From an uncultured Methylomirabilota bacterium (GTDB taxonomy: Bacteria; Methylomirabilota; Methylomirabilia; Methylomirabilales; 2-02-FULL-66-22): 64,000 bases of DNA. Under the pieces are notes generated by a model. That model saw only the letters and a program-made list of their open reading frames with translations, was not told where the DNA came from and did not search any database. Location: contig OY970067.1 in assembly GCA_963705305.1 (NCBI GenBank), forward strand, positions 1,888,001 through 1,952,000. Reading direction: 5' to 3'. A program made the translations under genes and the position numbers. How positions within the stretch are numbered: position 1 is the stretch's first letter; each line of letters starts with the position of its first letter. This document shows positions 3,239 to 16,267 of the stretch, one piece after another.

Positions 3239-3385
3239 GTATGCCGTGGATACTCTAGCACTCGCCGGTGGAAGTCCGGCCCCGGGAGCGGGCAGCGCGC
3301 CCGGGTAGCTTGAGGGAGGTGTGAGGGGTAACCTGAAACACCGAGTTCCCTGACGAGCGCTCACCGAGGTGAGCGCGCAACCCCG
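3239..3385 (+). mobile_element. Group II intron-like 5' fragment (domain I only, no RT ORF or domain V/VI)
   Basis: GTATG start resembles GUGYG; GCCGG-TGGAAGT-CCGGC GNRA-type hairpin; GGGTAGC; GGTGT…GGTAACC…ACACC stem; GCGCTCAC/GTGAGCGC stem. Order matches group II domain I as I recall it. Confidence 0.6.
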
Positions 3386-3528
3386 TCCGCCGACGGCGGA
3401 TAGCGTGCAGCGAACCAGGCGGAGCCCCAGTAGCCTGGATCCGGCGTGGTCAAGATGCCTCAAAGCGGCGGCGAGTAGCATGCATTCCTTGCGCGAGAAC
3501 CCCCAACAGGGCATTCCGGGAGGGTGGC

Positions 3529-5007
3529 ATGAGGACGGAGATGGATGACAGACAACACCGCGTGATCCTGCAGAGAATTGCCCATCGGGCGATGCGGGAA
3601 CGAGGACTTGTTCCCGATTTCCCGCCCCAGGCGCTCGCCGAGCTCGACGGAATCCACGGGCCGGCGACGCGAGCTGACAGATCGACGCGCGATCTCCGGA
3701 ACCTGCCCTGGTGCTCCATCGACAACGATGATTCGCGGGATCTGGACCAGCTGACCGTTGCCGAAGCCCTGCCCGACGGGGCCGCCAAGGTCCTGGTCGC
3801 CATTGCCGATGTGGACGCGCTCGTCCCGAAGCGGTCGGCGCTTGACGAGCATGCGCGGCAGAACACCACCTCGGTCTACACGGTTGCCGAGACGTTTCCG
3901 ATGCTGCCCGAGAAGCTCTCCACGGATCTTACCTCGCTCAACCCCGAATCCGACCGCCTGGCCATCGTCGTTGAAATGGTTCTCGCCGGGGACGGATCGC
4001 TGCAGCGGTCGGACCTGTATCGAGCGACGGTGCGGAATCGGGCCAAGCTGGCCTACAACAGCGTGGCCGACTGGCTGGAGGGGAACGGGCCGATGCCCCG
4101 AGGGATCGGCACGGTCAGCGGTCTGGAGGAAACCCTGCGACTCCAGGACCGCGTGGCGCAGAAGCTGAAGGCGCTCCGGCACCTGCACGGGGCGCTCACT
4201 CTCGAAACCGTCGAAGTCCGTCCGGTCTTTGAGGGCGATGAGCTCAAGGACTTGGAAGCCGACGAAAAGAACCGGGCCAAGGCCATTATTGAGGACTTCA
4301 TGATCGCCGCCAACGGCGTTACCGCACGATACCTCGCGGCAAAGCAGTGTCCGTCGCTGCGGCGCGTGGTCCGCGTCCCCAAACGCTGGGACCGGATCGT
4401 CGAGCTTGCCGCCGAGCGGGGCACAACACTGCCCACGGAACCCGACGCACAGGCCCTGGAGCAGTTCCTGGTCACGGCGAGAGCCGCTGACCCTCTCCGC
4501 TTTCCCGATCTCTCTCTCAGCGTCGTGAAACTGCTGGGTCCGGGTGAATACGTCGTCCAACTTCCGGGAGGCAATGTCGCCGGGCACTTCGGTCTTGCGG
4601 TCAAGGACTATGCGCACTCCACCGCCCCGAACCGCCGATTCCCCGACCTGATTACACAACGCCTGCTGAAAGCATCGGAGGCGGGACACTCCGGGCCCTA
4701 CGAGAACGACGAGTTGGCCACGCTCGCCAAGCACTGCACCGAAGCGGAAGACGCAGCGAAAAAAGTTGAACGGCAGGTCACAAAATCCGCCGCCGCGATG
4801 CTGCTGCAAGCAAGGATCGGGGAGCAATTCGATGCCGTCGTCACCGGCGCATCGGACAAAGGGACGTGGGTCCGCCTGCTGCGTCCGCCCATTGAAGGAA
4901 GGCTGGAGAGCGGGTTTGAAGGCGTGGACGTCGGCCACACGCTGCGTGTACAACTGGTCCGCACGGATGTAGAGCGCGGATATATCGACTTCAAGAGACT
5001 GGCGTAA
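3529..5007 (+). CDS. RNB-domain exoribonuclease (RNase II/R family, short form)
   Basis: SIDNDDSRDLDQ catalytic motif, VAIADV, HFGLA…YAHSTAPNRRFPDL, C-terminal S1-like region. Confidence 0.92.
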   Translation: MRTEMDDRQHRVILQRIAHRAMRERGLVPDFPPQALAELDGIHGPATRADRSTRDLRNLPWCSIDNDDSRDLDQLTVAEALPDGAAKVLVAIADVDALVPKRSALDEHARQNTTSVYTVAETFPMLPEKLSTDLTSLNPESDRLAIVVEMVLAGDGSLQRSDLYRATVRNRAKLAYNSVADWLEGNGPMPRGIGTVSGLEETLRLQDRVAQKLKALRHLHGALTLETVEVRPVFEGDELKDLEADEKNRAKAIIEDFMIAANGVTARYLAAKQCPSLRRVVRVPKRWDRIVELAAERGTTLPTEPDAQALEQFLVTARAADPLRFPDLSLSVVKLLGPGEYVVQLPGGNVAGHFGLAVKDYAHSTAPNRRFPDLITQRLLKASEAGHSGPYENDELATLAKHCTEAEDAAKKVERQVTKSAAAMLLQARIGEQFDAVVTGASDKGTWVRLLRPPIEGRLESGFEGVDVGHTLRVQLVRTDVERGYIDFKRLA

Positions 5008-5773: not shown

Positions 5774-5895
5774 GTGGTAAAGAGGACATCATCCACCTTC
5801 CGCCCGAGCAGCTTGTGGACGGCATCCTCCAGAAAGAGCAGCGCATCGGGGAGATCATGGGAGAGATCAAGCAGCTCCTGGAGAAGGAATTGTGA
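5773..5895 (+). pseudogene. hsdM: C-terminal stub of a type I R-M methyltransferase (HsdM)
   Basis: Translates to RGKEDIIHLPPEQLVDGILQKEQRIGEIMGEIKQLLEKEL*, resembling HsdM C-termini; no start codon; stop overlaps the next gene's GTG (GTGA). Confidence 0.65.
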
Positions 5896-6911
5896 AGCGC
5901 AGAGTCAAGCCCCGGGGTGTGGCGGAGCCCATTGCCGCGTACGGATCGGACCGCGGCGAGGTCGCGCTCTACCGGGCGCCCGATGGGACCGTGACCCTGG
6001 ATGTCCGGTTGGAGCGCGAGACCATCTGGCTGAACTTGAACCAGATGGCCGACCTGTTCGGGCGGGATAAATCCGTTATCTCCCGCCATTTGCGAAAGGT
6101 CTTTGGTGACGGGGAGTTAGAGCGGGATTCAGTTGTTGTTTTTTTTGCAACAACTGCCTCCGACGGAAAGACCTACCAAGTTGAATATTTCAACCTGGAT
6201 GCCGTCATCTCTGTAGGCTACCGGGTGAATTCAAAGCGAGGGACCCAGTTCCGGGTCTGGGCGACTGGCGTCCTGCGCGACCACCTCCTCAAAGGATATA
6301 CGGTCAATGCTCGACGGCTGAAGGAGTTGAACCAGGCCATCCGGCTGATCGCCGACGTGGCCGAGCGGCGGGAGCTGAAAGGGGACGAGGCGACCGCCCT
6401 TCTGCGTGTGGTGGCCGACTACAGCTACGCGCTCGACCTGCTGGACGACTACGACAATCAGCGGGTTGCGGTGGCCGGGACCACCCGGGCCGACGCTGTC
6501 GCAGTGACGTATGACGAAGCGCGGGATGCCATCGAGCGACTCCGAGGGAAGTTCAAGGCCTCCGACCTCTTCGGCCGGGAGAAAGACAACAGCCTGCGCG
6601 GCTCCCTCCAGTCGGTGATGCAGACGGCAGACGGGAAGGACGTTTACCCGAGCATCGAGGAGAAGGCGGCCCACCTGCTGTACTTCCTGGTCAAGAACCA
6701 TCCCTTCGTGGATGGCAACAAGCGCATCGCCGCCGCCCTGTTCCTCTGGTTCCTACAAAAGAATTGCGCACTCTACCGCCCTGACGGCACCAAGCGTATC
6801 GCCGACAACGCCCTCGTGGCCATGACCCTGCTCATCGCCGAGAGCAGCCCCGCGGAGAAGTCCGTGCTCGTCAGCGTCATCGTCAACCTCATCAACAAGC
6901 GGAACCCATGA
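5892..6911 (+). CDS. RhuM-family / Fic-Doc domain protein
   Basis: RhuM region (ETIWL…QMADLF, NLDAVISVGYRVNSKRGTQFR) plus Fic motif HPFVDGNKRIA. Confidence 0.92.
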   Translation: MKRRVKPRGVAEPIAAYGSDRGEVALYRAPDGTVTLDVRLERETIWLNLNQMADLFGRDKSVISRHLRKVFGDGELERDSVVVFFATTASDGKTYQVEYFNLDAVISVGYRVNSKRGTQFRVWATGVLRDHLLKGYTVNARRLKELNQAIRLIADVAERRELKGDEATALLRVVADYSYALDLLDDYDNQRVAVAGTTRADAVAVTYDEARDAIERLRGKFKASDLFGREKDNSLRGSLQSVMQTADGKDVYPSIEEKAAHLLYFLVKNHPFVDGNKRIAAALFLWFLQKNCALYRPDGTKRIADNALVAMTLLIAESSPAEKSVLVSVIVNLINKRNP

Positions 6912-9655: not shown

Positions 9656-10694
9656 ATGAAAATGAAGGCCTTGATCAAGGAAACACCGCAGACGGGCGCC
9701 GTCCTCAGGGAAGTCGAGGTCCCCGGCATCCGGGACACCGAGGTCCTGGTGAAGGTGAAGCGAGCGGCCATTTGCGGGACGGATATCCACATTTATTTCT
9801 GGACCGCCTACGCTCAGCAGCGCCTGAAGCTCCCCATGATCTTTGGGCATGAGTTCTGTGGCGAGGTCGTCGAGGTGGGGAAGAACACCAAGCGCCTGAA
9901 GAAGGGCGACCTCGTGGCTGTGGAAACCCACATCCCCTGCGAGGTCTGCTTTCAGTGCAACACCGGACTGATGCACGTCTGCCGGGACATGAAGATCATC
10001 GGCGTGCACACGACCGGCACCTTCAGCGAGTATGCCGCCATCCCGGAGATATGCGCCTGGAAGCTCTCGCCCGCCACGTCCCCCGATATTGGCGCGGTCT
10101 ATGAACCCTTTGGAATCGGCGTCCACTCCTTGACCCGGCACAAGGTCGCGGGAAAGCGGGTCCTGATCACCGGGGCCGGCCCCATTGGCCTGTTCGCCCT
10201 CGCGGTGGCCAGGATGAGCGGCGCCATGAAGATCTTCTCGTCGGAACGTCAGCGAGGAACGGCTGGCGCTGGCCCGCCGGATGGGCGCGGACGTCGTCCT
10301 GAACCCCCAAAAGGTTGACGTGGTCAAGGAAATCATGAAGGCCACTGGAGAGTTCGGGGTGGACATCTTCGTGGAGCTTTCGGGCAACGGCGAAGCCTGC
10401 CAGACGGGCCTCAAAGCCCTGCGCCGAGGCGGCTCCGTGTCCCTGGTCGGGCTCTTCAACAATACCGTGGAACTCGATCTCGTGAATGACGTGATTTACA
10501 AGGAGGCGACGGTATACGGGATCACCGGCCGGACCATGTTCTCGACCTGGACCGAGGCGGCGGACATCCTCGACTCGGGCAACATCGACATCTCGCCCGT
10601 GCTCACCCATCATTTCCCCATGGAGGAGTTCGAAAAGGCCTTTGAAACGGCCCGCTCGGGCAAGTGCGGCAAGATCCTCTTTGACATCGGCTGA
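9656..10694 (+). pseudogene. Zn-dependent dehydrogenase (L-threonine 3-dehydrogenase-like) with a single +1 frameshift (real or sequencing error)
   Basis: ICGTD, GHEFCG, four-Cys structural Zn site, GAGPIG; removing one A at 10245-10246 gives SSDVSEERLALARRMGAD and joins the two ORFs. Confidence 0.8.
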
Positions 10695-11146: not shown

Positions 11147-11677
11147 TCACGCCTGCCCCTGGAGCAGGAGCCGTGCGACGTCCGGGGTGATGGCGCGCGC
11201 CCGCTGGACCAGCTCGGCTTCGGTGAGGTTCGCTGTCGGATGCGGCATGGTGAGGAACCGGTAGTAGGGAAGCCCCCACTGTTCGGCCATGGCCCGCCCC
11301 GTCACCTCAAACGGGTCCGTCACGATCGCGGCCGAGGGCACGCCCGCCTTTTCCAACAAGATGCCGTCGAGCACACTGCCCGATGAGCACGACCCTCAGT
11401 CACCGATGCCCGCGACCATGAGGTCGCAGCTCCGGCGAAGCTCCGCGATGATCGCCTCATCCGCGGGCACGCTGGCGTTCTGCTTCCGCCACATGCGGGT
11501 CTCGGCCACCCCGTACTCCGCCTTCAGAATCTCCCCGATCTTTTGCAGCAGGCGGTCGGAGTTGAATTTCGTGTTGTCGATCAAGCCGACGCGCTTGCCC
11601 GCGAGGGATGCGGGTCGCGGCGCGTAGGCCACGGTCTGCGGGGCCGCTTCGAGAGTGGGATCGAGCAGTTCCATCAT
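11147..11677 (-). CDS. UGSC-type selenoprotein (thioredoxin-like U-x-x-C); UGA at 11396-11398 read as Sec
   Basis: The 93-aa and 75-aa ORFs are in frame across one TGA: …VAGIGD-U-GSCSSGSVLDGILLEKAGVP…; hairpin just downstream of the UGA. Confidence 0.85.
11367..11383 (-). promoter_or_regulatory. Putative bacterial SECIS element
   Basis: UCGGGCA-GUG-UGCUCGA forms a 7-bp stem with a G-first loop, 19 nt after the UGA. Confidence 0.6.
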
Positions 11678-12711
11678 TGTTTGACCTCCTTGGTCACCGC
11701 CTGGGAGGAGCGCCGGCTCCCCCAGCCAGGGACGTAGGCCGAAAAGGCGCCGGCCCGGCCGCCGGCCGCGATGACGAGAATATCGCCCGGGGATTCCACG
11801 AGCGGCCGCAGGCGCGTCTCGTCACCCGGCTTCACCGCCCCCGAGAGGCGGTGGGTCTGCTTGAGGTGGGCGAGCGAGTTCTGGGTGTGGTCGAAGATGA
11901 ACTGGCGGATCCGGGCCTTGGGCCACCCGTCCTGCGCAATCGTGCGCATATGCTCGCCGGCCAGGATGACCAGGTACTGGGGCTGGCCCACGACGTTCCC
12001 GGACACGCGCATATCGTCACACAGCGTCGCGAGGATCCCTTCCGCCGTGTTGGAGAGTTGGTTGTAGAATTGGTGCGGGGCCTCCGCCGCCATGACGCTG
12101 ACGGCGCTCTGATCGGGGCGGAAGCCGCGCTCAACGTGCAGCGGCGTCCACGGGCTGTCCGCCTCGTTTTCGGCGATGACGTACGAGAGCTTGCCCGGGT
12201 GCCCGAGCGTGCCCCGATCGAGCGCGCCCGGGCGGGACCCGCAGACGTTGCGCATGATCAGCCGCACCGCGCGCCCGATGGTGGCGTTGGCCCGCCAGCC
12301 CGGGCCGAACAGGTTATCGCCCGCGTTGATGTCGAGTTCCCGGGCGATCGGGCCGTTGACGACGATGAGGACGCCGGCACCCGCGGTGGACGTGCCGGGG
12401 CCGTGGTAGTTCCAGGCGGGCTCCCCGATCGCCTCGACGGCGGCCAGCACGACCGGCAGATATTCGGGTTTGCAGCCAGCCAGGACGGCGTTGATGGCGA
12501 CCTTCTCGGCCGTAATGGGGACAGCCCGATGGGCGATGTAGGCGACCTGGTGATCGGGGGCCAGCCGGACCGCCTCCAGCATGGCGTGGATTCGGTCCGG
12601 GGTGGGCGGGATGACGGGGAGTCCGTCCGTCCAGCCCTGGGCATGGCAGTATTCGATCGGGTCCGTCTCGTCGTCAATCACGTGACGCTTGGATGCCAGC
12701 GTTTCCGCCAT
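11674..12711 (-). CDS. Conserved hypothetical protein (GWTDGLPVIPPT family), partner of the UGSC protein
   Basis: Motifs GWTDGLPVIPPT, EKVAINAVLAGCKPEY, VVNGP, RANATIGRA, ENE..SPW; stop overlaps the selenoprotein start. Confidence 0.85.
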   Translation of the reverse strand: MAETLASKRHVIDDETDPIEYCHAQGWTDGLPVIPPTPDRIHAMLEAVRLAPDHQVAYIAHRAVPITAEKVAINAVLAGCKPEYLPVVLAAVEAIGEPAWNYHGPGTSTAGAGVLIVVNGPIARELDINAGDNLFGPGWRANATIGRAVRLIMRNVCGSRPGALDRGTLGHPGKLSYVIAENEADSPWTPLHVERGFRPDQSAVSVMAAEAPHQFYNQLSNTAEGILATLCDDMRVSGNVVGQPQYLVILAGEHMRTIAQDGWPKARIRQFIFDHTQNSLAHLKQTHRLSGAVKPGDETRLRPLVESPGDILVIAAGGRAGAFSAYVPGWGSRRSSQAVTKEVKQ

Positions 12712-12975
12712 CCGCCATCCTCCTGGCGCTGGGCCGGAGCCGGTTGGAAAGCGCCGGCGACGCTTGTCCCCTGGGCCTCGCGGCCGACGCCTCCAATCAC
12801 CGAGACAGCCAATGCCGTTACTATGCGGAATCTACCTTTGGTTGTCAATTGCATCTGTTCATCGAAGGAGAGGAAAGATCACTCATTGCATCATGAGATT
12901 AGTGGCGTTGTTGCCTATGTTAACCTACGCTTACCAAGCCGGCGAGGTCTCTTGAGCCTGGGCGCAGTGGAGCAA

Positions 12976-13476: not shown

Positions 13477-13800
13477 CTACGCGAGAAGCCGGAGGCGCAT
13501 CAGCCGTTGCGCGAGCCGATAGATGTCCTCTCGGGATCCCTCGCGACGAGGTCCGACGGCGACCACGAGAACCTCTACCTGGGTCCGGCGCACCCGGTAG
13601 ATGATGCGGAATCGTTGGCCAGCGGCCCGCACGCTGCGGAAGCCTTTGAGTTCTCCGAGAAGCGACTTGCCTTGGAGCTCGGGATCGAGGGCGAGCCCGT
13701 CGATCCGCTCCCGAATTGTTTCCAGGGTGCGGCGATCTGTGATTGTCGCCAGCATGTTGCGGGCCGTCAAGGCTAGGCGGACGCGATATGGGCCCGGCAT
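13477..13800 (-). CDS. RelE/ParE family toxin
   Basis: GKSLLGELKGFRSVRAAGQRFRIIYRV…VVAVGPR; TGATG coupling to the antitoxin. Confidence 0.88.
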   Translation of the reverse strand: MPGPYRVRLALTARNMLATITDRRTLETIRERIDGLALDPELQGKSLLGELKGFRSVRAAGQRFRIIYRVRRTQVEVLVVAVGPRREGSREDIYRLAQRLMRLRLLA

Positions 13801-14075
13801 CACAGGTCCAGTTCCCGCTTCACCTTCTCCCACGGGATGGTCTTTCCGCTCCGCGCCTCCCTGACGCTTCGCCGCAGCGCTCGCATAGTCTCCTCATCTC
13901 CGAGGATCTCCAGGGTCTCTACCAGACTCTCGTAGAACTCCCACGGGAGCACCGCGAGCACGGGCTTTCCCCGCTTGGTCACGGTCACCGCGCTTCCCGC
14001 CGGGGGCTGGTTCAGCGCCTCGGCCAGCTCCAGCAATTGCGATCGAACCTGGGTGATGGACATCGTCTTGGTCAT
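13800..14075 (-). CDS. Phd/YefM family antitoxin
   Basis: RBS GGAGGAG; MSITQVRSQL…VTVTKRGKPVLAVL…YESLVETLEIL. Confidence 0.9.
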   Translation of the reverse strand: MTKTMSITQVRSQLLELAEALNQPPAGSAVTVTKRGKPVLAVLPWEFYESLVETLEILGDEETMRALRRSVREARSGKTIPWEKVKRELDL

Positions 14076-14091
14076 GGGCACTCCTCCACAC

Positions 14092-14130
14092 TGTGCACAT
14101 GAGTGTACATGCACCCGTCCTGGGTGTCAA
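14092..14130 (-). promoter_or_regulatory. sigma70 promoter with tandem palindromic operators of the phd-relE operon
   Basis: Minus strand TTGACA-17-TACACT; palindromes TGTACA (14104-14109) and TGTGCACA (14092-14099). Confidence 0.75.
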
Positions 14131-15119
14131 TCTCCGGCTCAGGCTCGGTCGTGTATCGAAGAGGACGTAGTTACCTTGATTACCTTAATTGCGACCAGCA
14201 TGCGGCCGCCTCAGCCTGTGGGTTGGGAGCCGTTGTTGACTCATCGGACGTGTCCATCGCGGGAAGGGGCCGGGAGGCATGCCGTGGAGACGCCGGGTAC
14301 AGGGGACACTGCAATTTCTGTCGTCTTCCGCAGAAAAGGCTATGGGACGGCTACGTGCCTCGTAGTGAGGGAGTGCACGGTCAGGGAGGACTCCGCCGCC
14401 TGCGCAGGAGGAATGAACGCGGCCAGGGGTGATGTGGACACAGGAGACTCAAGGCTTGAATCCCTGCGTGCCATTTGAGAGGAAAAATCAGAAACCTTCT
14501 GAGAACTGATCACGTGTATTTCCTCATGCGCGATTTTGATGCTTGGCGGTCAAAACTATCGGTAGGGGGCCGGGGAGAGCCGAATCTGCCAGTTGGGAGC
14601 CCGGCCCCAGCTCCGTGGGTGGCCGAGTAGCGCATTGCATGCTCGAGAGCGGCGAGGCCCGCGGAAACAATGAGGTGGCGCCGTCGCAAAAACGGGAGGC
14701 GCGCCCCGAATGGATTTGCGGGGCCTCTTTATAAGATGCCGCATCGTGGGTCGAGTCGTGTCCGCCCCTCATGCCCAAAACCCGGCATTGGCCAATATTT
14801 GACTCCATCCCCCTCGTGTGTCTTCCGTCACGCATTTCATTCCATTTAGTCAAAATGACATGTCACGAGTTTGGCGAGACTGCCACTATGGCATAAATGA
14901 TTCACACGAGACGACAAGCCACCCATCCACGAGCACCGGAAGCCCCTAAGTCCTTGGTAAGCTTCTGAATGGAGAGTGCTCGAAAATTTGGCAAGCCGCC
15001 TTCTTGGAACACCCGTTGCACTCGGACAGTCAACGTACCCCCGGATGCCAGGACCCAGAAGATCGGTGGTCGCCTGCATCGAAGGCGACCACAACGGCCC
15101 TTCATCAGGAGGCAACGGA

Positions 15120-15221
15120 ATGTTTGAGATCCTGTTCGTCGTGACGCTGTTTGGGGTCTTGTACCTGGACATCATTGAGTTTCTCGACAAGTGCGATTCT
15201 CCCCCAACATCGACCTTCTGA
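15120..15221 (+). CDS. Possible 33-aa small membrane protein
   Basis: AGGAGG RBS; MFEILFVVTLFGVLYLDIIEFLDKCDSPPTSTF. Confidence 0.35.
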   Translation: MFEILFVVTLFGVLYLDIIEFLDKCDSPPTSTF

Positions 15222-15579
15222 GGATCCGCCTGGAGTCCTCAGGCGCCTTTATGCGCCTGCCCTGCTGCCCTGGCCAAGGACTGTGATTGCAGCTTGCCTC
15301 GTCCCTCCCACGCCGCACCTGCTCCTGCTGAGGCACGCCCGTCTGCCGATCCAACGGGACGTAAGCTCAATTTCTGTGTATGATGGCGGCCTCCGCGCGC
15401 CTTGTTCCCGTCAGTGAGAGCGGAAGCCGGCGCGCTGTCGGATCGCATCCAGTCTCGCCCACTCCGTTGCAATGCCGGTCGTCCGGTTCGGGCATCCATG
15501 AACATCTCGCCTCGGAGATCTGCCGGCCCCGGCAGAAGGCCCTGGTCGTCGTTCGCCAGCCGGGGGCTGTCAGCCAGGG

Positions 15580-15680
15580 CTAGCCCACGGCAGCGAGAAA
15601 CCGATCGACCAGCTGATTGAGGACCCCGGCCCACTCGAAGTAGACCGAGTGGCCGACGTCCCAGACCTGCTCGACCTGAG
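15580..15680 (-). pseudogene. alpha/beta-hydrolase C-terminal remnant
   Basis: Minus strand reads …QVWDVGHSVYFEWAGVLNQLVDRFLAAVG*, resembling the catalytic-His end of alpha/beta hydrolases. Confidence 0.45.
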
Positions 15681-16267
15681 AAAAAGGTACCGGAAAGCTT
15701 TGGGGAGCGAAGTGCTTGAATTCCCGGAGCAGCGCTTTCAATTCTTGGCCAAGGATGGGCCCGGCGAGGATGCTGTGATGCCGCGCGCCCGGTACGCGGC
15801 CCTTGGAGCGGACTCCGGCAGTGGCCGGAGCAGACGAAAGACGGGACGCCAGGGCCGATCTCCGCGAGCCGCGCAGTGGCGCACCCGAAAGGCGTGATCA
15901 TCATGACCATGGTCGGATTCCCCTTTGTGCGCTTCGCCCCTTTGGAGGATAATACGTCGACTCACGAGGCCCGCCACTAGGGAGCGCTTGCCCGCTCGGG
16001 TGCGGCCTGAGCCGGACGGCTTGGGCAGTCCGCATTCCCCCCGTCCTCTCACTCCAGCTCCCGATGGCCGCCGGCGGTCTTCCCGTCCGCGGACAGGCTC
16101 GCGTGGGGCACTGACGTGCCTGTCCGGAGAGGCGCGGAATGGATTCGCCGACCAGTGCGGTGCGCGCCGGCGGAGCCGCCTCGGGCGGTCCGCTGCGCGC
16201 GAGGCAGCCTTTTCGCACACGTCATGAAGTCGCCGCAATCTCGGGGCGGCGACGGGAGGAAACCGCC

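What the first reader, a model, noticed from the sequence alone, without database searches (positions are those of the whole stretch)
11147..12711. Selenoprotein hidden as two ORFs: U-G-S-C redox protein coupled to an uncharacterised partner
Seen: an in-frame TGA (11396-11398) in GIGD-*-GSCSSGSVLDG, with a 7-bp hairpin and G-first loop 19 nt downstream, and coding-like sequence on both sides. The gene overlaps the stop of a 345-aa conserved protein. Known: UGSC-motif proteins are a predicted selenoprotein family with a UxxC motif, and I know of no established function. Inference: a two-subunit selenium-dependent redox enzyme, perhaps analogous to the Sec subunits of glycine/proline reductases, with the large subunit binding substrate.
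Basis: partly seen in the sequence, partly recalled or inferred. Interest (0 to 1): 0.75.

Follow-up and report, generated by a model that had tools for sequence, protein, structure and literature searches.

The report
UGSC selenoprotein with its conserved partner gene
Two overlapping genes encode a small selenocysteine-containing redox protein of a known but unstudied family and the larger uncharacterised protein it is nearly always found beside or fused to; what the pair does is still unknown.

Summary
On the minus strand, a 345-aa gene (11674-12711) overlaps by ATGA the start of a 176-codon gene (11147-11677). Codon 94 of that gene is TGA (11396-11398). Read through, it is a full-length UGSC-family (seleno)protein (Pfam PF24696, 204.5 bits; NCBIfam NF041046, above cut-off).

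In related genomes, 63 of 66 UGSC copies carry TGA at this column and 3 carry TGC. A hairpin starting 12 nt after the TGA (7 bp, loop GUG) is kept with compensatory changes across 62 sequences.

The partner has no Pfam, NCBIfam or PDB relative. It belongs to a very large family (5293 representative clusters). Of 80 related loci, 63 have a UGSC gene within the fetched flanks, usually directly beside the partner. Natural UGSC-partner fusions are common. This is the 'Unknown_1' domain already reported fused to UGSC in 2008.

New here:
- UGSC models as a flavodoxin-like fold, not a thioredoxin fold.
- Some partners are instead fused to CxxC redoxin-like or ferredoxin:thioredoxin-reductase-like domains.

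Best reading: UGSC is a selenol/thiol electron carrier serving a new reductase subunit of unknown substrate. The selenoprotein call is nearly certain and the mechanism is inferred. The glycine/proline-reductase analogy finds no sequence support. This is an ordinary member of a known, unsolved family.

The parts
12820..12848 (-). promoter-like site TTGACA-17 nt-CATAGT, about 110 nt upstream of the partner's ATG
   Evidence: 10 of 12 consensus matches; 2 sites found in the region against 0.4 expected. This is a consensus match only.
12719..12724 (-). Shine-Dalgarno AGGAGG, 7 nt before the partner's ATG
   Evidence: read from the sequence
11674..12711 (-). partner gene, 345 aa ('Unknown_1' family); Cys80 present, Val178 where most relatives have Cys
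   Evidence: ORF. No Pfam or NCBIfam family. 5293 representative clusters at E <= 1e-3. AF2 model pLDDT 96.1 with no convincing PDB match. Cys pattern.
11685..11691 (-). Shine-Dalgarno AAGGAGG for the UGSC gene, inside the end of the partner gene
   Evidence: read from the sequence
11147..11677 (-). UGSC-family selenoprotein gene: 176 codons plus stop TGA (11147-11149); its start overlaps the partner's stop as ATGA
   Evidence: read-through; Pfam PF24696 at 204.5 bits; NCBIfam NF041046 at 140.7 bits against cut-off 125; AF2 pLDDT 94.6
11396..11398 (-). in-frame TGA, codon 94, read as selenocysteine (first residue of U-G-S-C, codons 94-97 = 11387-11398)
   Evidence: Same column: TGA in 63 and TGC in 3 of 66 related copies. 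Cys in full-length database homologues.
11367..11383 (-). SECIS-like hairpin core: 7-bp stem with loop GUG (11374-11376), starting 12 nt after the TGA; a lower stem can extend it to 11361-11390
   Evidence: Searches give the fold. (62 sequences): 84.6% of cells paired against 77.4% shuffled; covariation 0.199 against 0.080; 0 of 500 shuffles reach it. RNAalifold finds the core 5 pairs on its own.

Best explanation
SHOWN OR NEAR-CERTAIN:
- The locus is a translationally coupled two-gene operon.
- The second gene encodes a UGSC-family selenoprotein.
- Its UGA-94 is most likely decoded as selenocysteine with the help of a conserved hairpin just downstream.
- The first gene encodes a 345-aa protein of the large, unnamed 'Unknown_1' family. 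That family is the habitual neighbour or fusion partner of UGSC, so the two act together.

INFERRED:
- UGSC is a small flavodoxin-fold redox carrier.
- Its U94-G-S-C97 motif sits at the N-terminus of helix 3. It cycles between selenol/thiol and a selenenylsulfide, as a thioredoxin CxxC does.
- It passes reducing equivalents to the partner.
- The partner is the catalytic, substrate-binding subunit. It uses Cys80 at a helix N-cap, and in most relatives a second Cys at position 178, together with a conserved Asp/Arg/Asn/Glu set (D29, R140, N142, R147, E181).
- The substrate is not identified. A small anionic one is my guess from those residues.
- In the window's clade position 178 is Val. Sec94 may then resolve the Cys80 intermediate directly.
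- Upstream electrons would come from a thioredoxin-type system or, in some relatives, from ferredoxin through a fused FTR-like domain.
For: Identity of the selenoprotein:
- Searches give the read-through and the family matches.
- Among 91 alignment rows of UGSC homologues including the query, the Sec column holds C in 69, W in 2 and R in 1. Fragments end at GIGD.
- In loci from many phyla, 63 of 66 UGSC copies have TGA at the column and 3 have TGC.
- TGA is an ordinary stop in 25 of 40 window ORFs, so the code is not reassigned.

SECIS:
- The hairpin is conserved in 62 sequences.
- Pair 25-35 changes on both sides in 16 sequences.
- Pair 27-33 switches CG to GC in 9. There a Trp TGG codon co-occurs with a C-ending codon three codons later; where that codon is Val the change is synonymous.
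- The covariation score is 0.199 against 0.080 shuffled, and at most 0.096 with slid partners.
- RNAalifold agrees.

Partnership:
- A UGSC domain lies within the fetched flanks in 63 of 80 partner loci, usually directly beside the partner.
- L002 and L005 hold in-frame Sec-UGSC::partner fusions.
- Of 57 partner-family representatives scanned (55 of them 382 aa or longer), 29 carry UGSC parts: 8 a whole UGSC, 17 the part after the Sec codon, and 4 the part before it. Three of these matches are below Pfam's gathering score.
- Four carry AhpC/TSA-Redoxin domains and 2 carry a ferredoxin:thioredoxin reductase catalytic domain.
- Two loci carry an in-frame N-terminal extension with a CATC motif.

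Folds:
- UGSC models as beta-alpha x5, with U94 between strand 3 and helix 3.
- Its structural neighbours are flavodoxin-like proteins (TM 0.40-0.50), with no thioredoxin-fold protein among the rows listed (ranks to 50).
- In the partner, Cys80 directly precedes helix 82-95.
- Cys80 and Cys178 are both present in 74 of 88 partner copies.
Against: - No experiment exists, and no paper in the held library gives a function.
- The direction of electron flow is inferred only from domain swaps.
- Neither partner Cys is universal. Eight copies are C80/V178, 3 are A80/C178 and 1 is G80/V178. This weakens any fixed two-Cys mechanism.
- Fifteen of 80 partner loci show neither UGSC nor a fused redox domain in the visible flanks. 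Some of these are cut by contig ends.
- Neighbouring genes differ from genome to genome and give no substrate clue.
- Sec-insertion genes could not be checked for this genome.
- The hairpin overlaps conserved coding sequence, so part of its conservation is protein-driven.
Confidence: 0.55

Rival explanations
1. Reverse roles. UGSC is the catalytic selenoenzyme (for example a peroxidase-like or small-molecule reductase). The partner, through Cys80 and Cys178, is its dedicated recycling reductase or electron relay.
For: - Sec normally sits in catalytic sites.
- The partner has two nearly invariant Cys, in 74 of 88 copies.
- The partner is fused to peroxiredoxin-family (AhpC/TSA) domains in 4 of 57 scanned representatives and to an FTR-like domain in 2. 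This could be read as reductase plus peroxidase fusions.
Against: - The fused redoxin-like domains seen in loci carry CxxC (CATC), a carrier-type motif rather than a peroxidatic one.
- An FTR-like domain could reduce a UxxC carrier directly, so a 345-aa relay would be superfluous.
- The partner's invariant Asp/Arg/Asn/Glu set looks like a substrate site.
- Both partner Cys are dispensable in some clades.
Confidence: 0.2
2. The pair is not an oxidoreductase. It binds or transfers a metal, metalloid, sulfur or selenium through U94, C97 and the partner's Cys residues. Many relatives have UGSCxxC..H.
For: - UGSC has Cys at +6 and His at +9 in 31 of 64 paired copies. Together with U and C this resembles a metal or cluster ligand set.
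- The partner's weak fold matches are to iron-sulfur class I fumarate hydratases.
Against: - The +6 and +9 residues are Gly/Leu in the window and Trp/His elsewhere, and they track the RNA hairpin.
- The fold matches have TM of only 0.26-0.35.
- The fusions are to thiol-disulfide redox modules.
Confidence: 0.12
3. Glycine/proline-reductase-like enzyme. UGSC would correspond to selenoprotein B (UxxC) and the partner to the substrate-activating subunit.
For: - The general plan is shared: a UxxC selenoprotein beside a larger subunit. That GrdB/PrdB carry UxxC comes from Table 2 of PMC2398784 for PrdB and from general knowledge.
Against: - Neither protein matches GRDB or any other Pfam family at E <= 10.
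- No grdA/C/D, prd or thioredoxin-system genes were found among the 42 window ORFs scanned or among the 79 neighbour proteins scanned.
- The hosts are mostly aerobic soil and marine lineages (record titles; the lifestyle is from general knowledge).
- Cys80 is Ala in some paralogues, so a universal self-processing site there is unlikely.
Confidence: 0.06
4. A broken gene or a sequencing error: the TGA is a true stop and the two halves are remnants.
For: Gene callers do split it. Many database entries are fragments ending at GIGD.
Against: - The same TGA is found in 63 of 66 copies across phyla.
- The reading frame is intact and codon bias is strong on both sides.
- The downstream hairpin is conserved.
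- A single domain with strands from both halves models at pLDDT 94.6.
Confidence: 0.02

Closest known systems
UGSC-containing (seleno)protein family (Pfam PF24696, NCBIfam NF041046; Zhang and Gladyshev, PMC1976440 and PMC2398784)
   Same: - Full-length match above both curated cut-offs.
- U-G-S-C motif at the family's column.
- TGA-encoded Sec with a downstream hairpin.
- Function unknown in the literature I could read.
   Different: - Nothing that sets it apart. It belongs to a Methylomirabilota/Rokubacteria-like branch with Gly at +6 and Leu at +9.
- The papers call the fold 'likely Trx-like'. The model here is flavodoxin-like.
UGSC/Unknown_1 fusion proteins of the Global Ocean Sampling study (PMC2398784, supplementary Figure S1A)
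   Same: - The same two modules.
- The printed Unknown_1 block (A-V-N-G-V-M-A-G-C-R-P-E-Y...) is the partner's most conserved stretch around Cys80.
   Different: Here the modules are two genes in the order partner then UGSC, joined by an ATGA overlap. The fusions run UGSC then partner.
Thioredoxin or TlpA-type CxxC carriers with their target reductases (works like; not a member)
   Same: - A two-residue redox motif spaced x-x at a helix N-terminus.
- Replaceable in this system by a redoxin-like CxxC domain.
- Can be wired to a ferredoxin:thioredoxin-reductase-like domain.
   Different: - A different fold (flavodoxin-like).
- Sec instead of Cys.
- A dedicated, co-encoded target.
Glycine / D-proline reductase selenoprotein B with its proprotein subunit
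   Same: A UxxC selenoprotein next to a larger subunit.
   Different: - No detectable sequence relation.
- No accompanying grd/prd genes.
- Different hosts.

Membership tests
UGSC family (PF24696 / NF041046) | profile match above the curated cut-off over the whole domain | tested here: met
   Pfam 204.5 bits (cut-off 25), residues 3-172 on profile 1-171 of 172. NCBIfam equivalog 140.7 bits (cut-off 125).
UGSC family (PF24696 / NF041046) | Sec or Cys followed by G-S-C at the conserved column | tested here: met
   U94-G95-S96-C97. Column 94 and G95 are invariant, and S96 and C97 are kept in at least 90% of 51 aligned sequences.
Bacterial selenoprotein gene | in-frame UGA aligned with Cys or UGA in homologues | tested here: met
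   63 TGA and 3 TGC among 66 copies. C in 69 of 91 database rows including the query; some of those C may stand for U in the source.
Bacterial selenoprotein gene | stem-loop shortly after the UGA with G (and U) in the apical loop | tested here: met
   The hairpin starts 12 nt after the UGA and its loop is GUG. It is conserved with compensatory changes in 62 sequences. The spacing and loop rules are recalled from the literature and were not checked against a program such as bSECISearch.
Bacterial selenoprotein gene | selA, selB, selC (tRNA-Sec) and selD in the genome | not testable with these tools
   There are no tRNA genes in the window and no Sel-protein domains in 42 window ORFs. The rest of the genome was not available.
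Bacterial selenoprotein gene | selenium found in the protein | not testable with these tools
   This needs 75Se labelling or mass spectrometry.
Thioredoxin-fold oxidoreductases (as suggested in PMC2398784) | thioredoxin fold | tested here: not met
   The AF2 model (pLDDT 94.6) is a five-fold beta-alpha repeat. Foldseek finds flavodoxin-like, FMN-reductase, receiver and G domains, with no thioredoxin-fold protein among the rows listed (ranks to 50). This rests on a predicted structure only.
Glycine/proline reductase selenoprotein B and proprotein subunit | sequence membership (Pfam GRDB and related models) | tested here: not met
   Neither protein has any Pfam match other than UGSC at E <= 10.
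Glycine/proline reductase selenoprotein B and proprotein subunit | accompanying grd/prd and thioredoxin-system genes | tested here: not met
   None among the 42 window ORFs scanned or the 79 neighbour proteins of related loci.
'Unknown_1' domain (partner family) | conserved block around the A-G-C motif and association with UGSC | tested here: met
   The block printed in Figure S1A matches the partner's most conserved stretch, which was used as the scan pattern. UGSC is adjacent in 63 of 80 loci. The family has no curated model, so this was judged by eye.

The most novel reading that the evidence does not exclude
UGSC and its partner form a previously unrecognised kind of selenol-dependent reductase. 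A flavodoxin-fold 'selenoredoxin' replaces thioredoxin as the electron donor. Its target is a catalytic subunit whose fold has no solved relative. In some lineages the system is wired to ferredoxin through an FTR-like domain. [quoted passage not shown]
Probability: 0.35. Interest if true: 0.7.

Novelty: new member of a known kind. Interest (0 to 1): 0.4.

Why it matters
[quoted passage not shown] A 2026 review still files it among selenoproteins whose functions remain largely uncharacterised (PMC13188914, passages).

This window adds nothing unusual to the family. The comparison it prompted does give testable handles:
- an obligate partner with a very large family of its own;
- a fold assignment that differs from the one in print;
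- interchangeable CxxC and FTR-like modules that point to a thiol/selenol electron relay;
- cultivable hosts of Cys and Sec forms in which the pair could be knocked out.

Tried and rejected
- Single-sequence folding of the region after the TGA is not better than shuffles. I therefore rest the SECIS case on the comparison across genomes only.
- Rfam finds nothing at the locus at E <= 1.
- PDB sequence searches with single proteins and with profiles gave only chance-level hits.
- Foldseek with the partner model gave only weak partial matches: class I fumarate hydratase, cyanuric acid hydrolase and PrpD, all with TM 0.35 or less. I do not read these as homology.
- The ESM Atlas placed the partner only among unnamed clusters. 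It gave no usable hit for a UGSC homologue once UGSC clusters were left out.
- The six 'longer' UGSC hits turned out to be a partner, then out-of-frame Arg-rich sequence, then the UGSC N-half. They are probably frameshift artefacts. I use them only as evidence of adjacency, not as fusions.
- Neighbouring genes were surveyed for a substrate clue: 79 proteins, same strand, within 300 nt. They are heterogeneous and no conclusion can be drawn. Recurring types were MFS transporters, family III CoA-transferases, TctC, LarA-like proteins, short-chain dehydrogenases, amidohydrolases and alpha/beta hydrolases.
- I looked for a link between the partner's residue 178 and UGSC residues +6 and +9. There is no clear pattern.
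- A scan of the window for other in-frame TGA genes found none.
The geometry between Sec94 and Cys80 therefore stays unexamined.
Full report
**What is in the sequence**

The feature lies on the minus strand. The ORF list shows a 345-aa ORF at 11674..12711. Behind it, in another frame, are a 93-aa ORF (11396..11677, ending ...GIGD then TGA) and a 75-aa ORF (11147..11374). Translating 11150..11677 with TGA read as U gives one 176-residue protein with U at position 94 in ...MVAGIGD-U-GSCSSGSVLDG....

The ATG of this gene (11677-11675) overlaps the stop TGA of the 345-aa gene (11676-11674) as ATGA, with AAGGAGG at 11691-11685. The upstream gene has AGGAGG 7 nt before its ATG. A TTGACA-17-CATAGT promoter-like site lies at 12848..12820.

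Third-position GC is 0.90 before and 0.88 after the TGA. With that filter the only other in-frame TGA in the 64 kb is an ordinary stop between two ETF genes. TGA ends 25 of 40 window ORFs, including both genes here, so a reassigned code is not the explanation.

**What the small protein is**

The read-through protein matches Pfam PF24696 'UGSC family' over residues 3-172 (1.7e-60, 204.5 bits). It also matches the NCBIfam equivalog NF041046 'UGSC family (seleno)protein' (140.7 bits, cut-off 125).

A database search found 90 homologues at E <= 1e-3. An alignment of 91 rows including the query has, at the Sec column, C in 69, W in 2, R in 1, A in 3 (frameshifted rows) and a gap in 16. The closest relatives are fragments that stop at GIGD. 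Some C may stand for U in the sources.

**Comparison across genomes**

The one genome scan was anchored on the partner (alignment A1). It found 616 relatives and kept the best 80 loci. These come from Methylomirabilota/Rokubacteria, Burkholderiales, Dehalococcoidia and other Chloroflexota, Poribacteria, Binatia, Acidobacteriota, Actinomycetota and Alphaproteobacteria.

I built an HMM from the full-length UGSC homologues. It finds a UGSC domain in 63 of the 80 loci. Of 66 UGSC hits of at least 60 bits, 63 have an in-frame TGA at the Sec column. Three (L027, L031, L049) have TGC. The usual order is partner then UGSC. In about a dozen loci it is UGSC then partner, and in one locus the UGSC gene is on the other strand 2.6 kb away.

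**The hairpin**

In the window the RNA after the UGA folds into a 7-bp stem with loop GUG: UCGGGCA / UGCUCGA, at 11383-11377 and 11373-11367. It starts 12 nt after the UGA, and a lower stem is possible.

Alone it is unremarkable for GC-rich sequence (z -1.19, 23 of 200 shuffles as good; a 91-nt stretch gave z -0.24).

Across 62 sequences, aligned without gaps (A3), the helix is kept:
- 84.6% of cells pair, against 77.4% in shuffles.
- The covariation score is 0.199, against 0.080 +/- 0.011. None of 500 shuffles reach it, and slid partners give at most 0.096.
- Pair 25-35 changes on both sides in 16 sequences.
- Pair 27-33 switches CG to GC in 9.

The last switch is telling. Copies with Trp (TGG) at +6 all use a C-ending codon at +8, while the Cys/Gly copies use a G-ending one. 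For Val that is a synonymous choice (alignment).

RNAalifold predicts the core five pairs independently. Rfam has no match here. That this spacing and a G/U-containing loop fit bacterial SECIS elements is from my recollection of the field.

**The partner**

The 345-aa protein has no Pfam or NCBIfam family even at E <= 10. It has no PDB relative by sequence or by profile. Yet its family is very large:
- An exhaustive search found 5293 representative clusters at E <= 1e-3, and 1295 at E <= 1e-30.

The structure model is confident (pLDDT 96.1, pTM 0.94). Its best PDB matches have TM of only 0.26-0.35: class I fumarate hydratase, cyanuric acid hydrolase and PrpD. I treat the fold as having no solved relative.

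Among the 66 aligned relatives, P32, G79, P86, G120 and R147 are invariant. D29, N74, C80, R140, N142, E181, W188 and a Cys at position 178 are kept in at least 90%.

Over 88 copies in the loci and the window:
- C80 plus C178 occurs in 74.
- C80 plus V178 occurs in 8, which is the window's clade.
- A80 plus C178 occurs in 3. These are a second, UGSC-fused paralogue that sits beside the split pair in L002, L005 and L006.

Cys80 directly precedes helix 82-95 in the model.

**Evidence that the two proteins work together**

Besides adjacency and the ATGA overlap, there are natural fusions.

L002 and L005 hold in-frame Sec-UGSC::partner genes. After the Sec TGA the next stop comes at residue 528 and 535 respectively.

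I scanned 57 partner-family representatives with Pfam. These were all 55 of the 150 listed that are 382 aa or longer, plus two of normal length. Results:
- 29 carry UGSC: 8 a whole domain before the partner, 17 only the part after the Sec codon before the partner (as expected if a gene caller starts after the TGA), and 4 the part before the Sec codon after the partner. Three of these matches are below Pfam's gathering score.
- 4 carry AhpC/TSA-Redoxin domains.
- 2 carry the ferredoxin:thioredoxin reductase catalytic domain. One of these also has UGSC.
- The other 23 have no family, and several of those are tandem duplications of the partner.

Two loci without UGSC (L053, L057) have an in-frame N-terminal extension with a CATC motif. 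The other 15 loci without UGSC show no redox neighbour in the visible flanks, and some are cut by contig ends.

**The UGSC fold**

The model (pLDDT 94.6) is five beta-alpha units, with U94 in the turn between strand 3 (86-92) and helix 3 (95-110). An unstructured but conserved N-terminal arm contains invariant P7 and R21. Foldseek returns flavodoxin-like domains, FMN reductases, receiver domains and G domains at TM 0.40-0.50. No thioredoxin-fold protein is among the rows listed, which run to rank 50. This differs from the 'likely Trx-like fold' stated in PMC2398784 (passage seen). It rests on a prediction.

**How it most likely works (inference)**

A UxxC pair at a helix N-terminus is the geometry of a redox-active dithiol. 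In some relatives the module is replaced by a CxxC redoxin-like domain, and in others the partner is joined to an FTR-like domain. Both facts point to a thiol/selenol electron relay ending at the partner. The partner's conserved polar set and helix-capping Cys look like an active site.

I therefore favour UGSC as the carrier and the partner as the reductase of an unknown substrate; that the substrate is small and anionic is my guess from the conserved Arg and Asn residues. In the window's clade, which lacks Cys178, Sec94 may resolve the Cys80 intermediate directly.

The reverse assignment, a metal or sulfur-handling role, and the glycine/proline-reductase analogy are kept as rivals. The last has no sequence or context support.

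**What is already known**

- PMC1976440 (passages) calls UGSC a selenoprotein of unknown function.
- PMC2398784 (passages and Table 2; supplementary Figure S1A) ranks it among the major ocean selenoprotein families and reports a UGSC/Unknown_1 fusion. The printed block is the partner's Cys80 region.
- Reviews of 2022 and 2026 (passages) still list it without a function.
- Two full-text searches for 'UGSC' found no functional study. Subscription journals are not covered.

**Verdict**

Its coupling to the partner is real but already in print as a fusion. The function remains open.

**Left unchecked**

- Sec-insertion genes of this genome.
- The share of UGSC genes that lack a partner.
- The closed metagenome and viral collections.

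Noticed in passing
window 9656-10694 (+): A zinc alcohol/threonine-dehydrogenase-like gene, convergent with the operon, is split into two overlapping ORFs: 9656-10318 with ADH_N and 10281-10694 with ADH_zinc_N. This implies a frameshift near 10240-10320, either a pseudogene or a sequence error.
   Followed up: no
window 13477-14114 (-): A ParE-like toxin and Phd/YefM-like antitoxin pair lies directly upstream of the operon's promoter region. Close relatives have an MFS transporter gene there instead.
   Followed up: partly
L002 2376-3956, L005 1304-2905, L006 2-814: In the nearest relatives, a second fused Sec-UGSC::partner paralogue (partner Ala80/Cys178) sits beside the split pair (partner Cys80/Val178). 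The two copies have complementary Cys patterns. The window shows only the split pair.
   Followed up: partly
window 3262-3415 (+): Rfam match to group II intron domains D1-D4 (RF02003, 60.2 bits against gathering score 49), just upstream of an RNB-domain (RNase II-type) ORF at 3529-5007.
   Followed up: no
window 14115-16138: About 2 kb without a convincing ORF and with lower GC (0.57-0.60 against 0.66 for the window) between the toxin-antitoxin pair and a class IV aminotransferase gene.
   Followed up: no
window 5892-6911 (+): An ORF combining RhuM-family and Fic/DOC domains.
   Followed up: no
representative proteins P0218, P0226, P0234, P0236, P0256, P0275 (about 710-740 aa); locus L023: The partner domain also occurs as tandem duplications within one protein and as three genes in a row. 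This hints that it works as a dimer.
   Followed up: no
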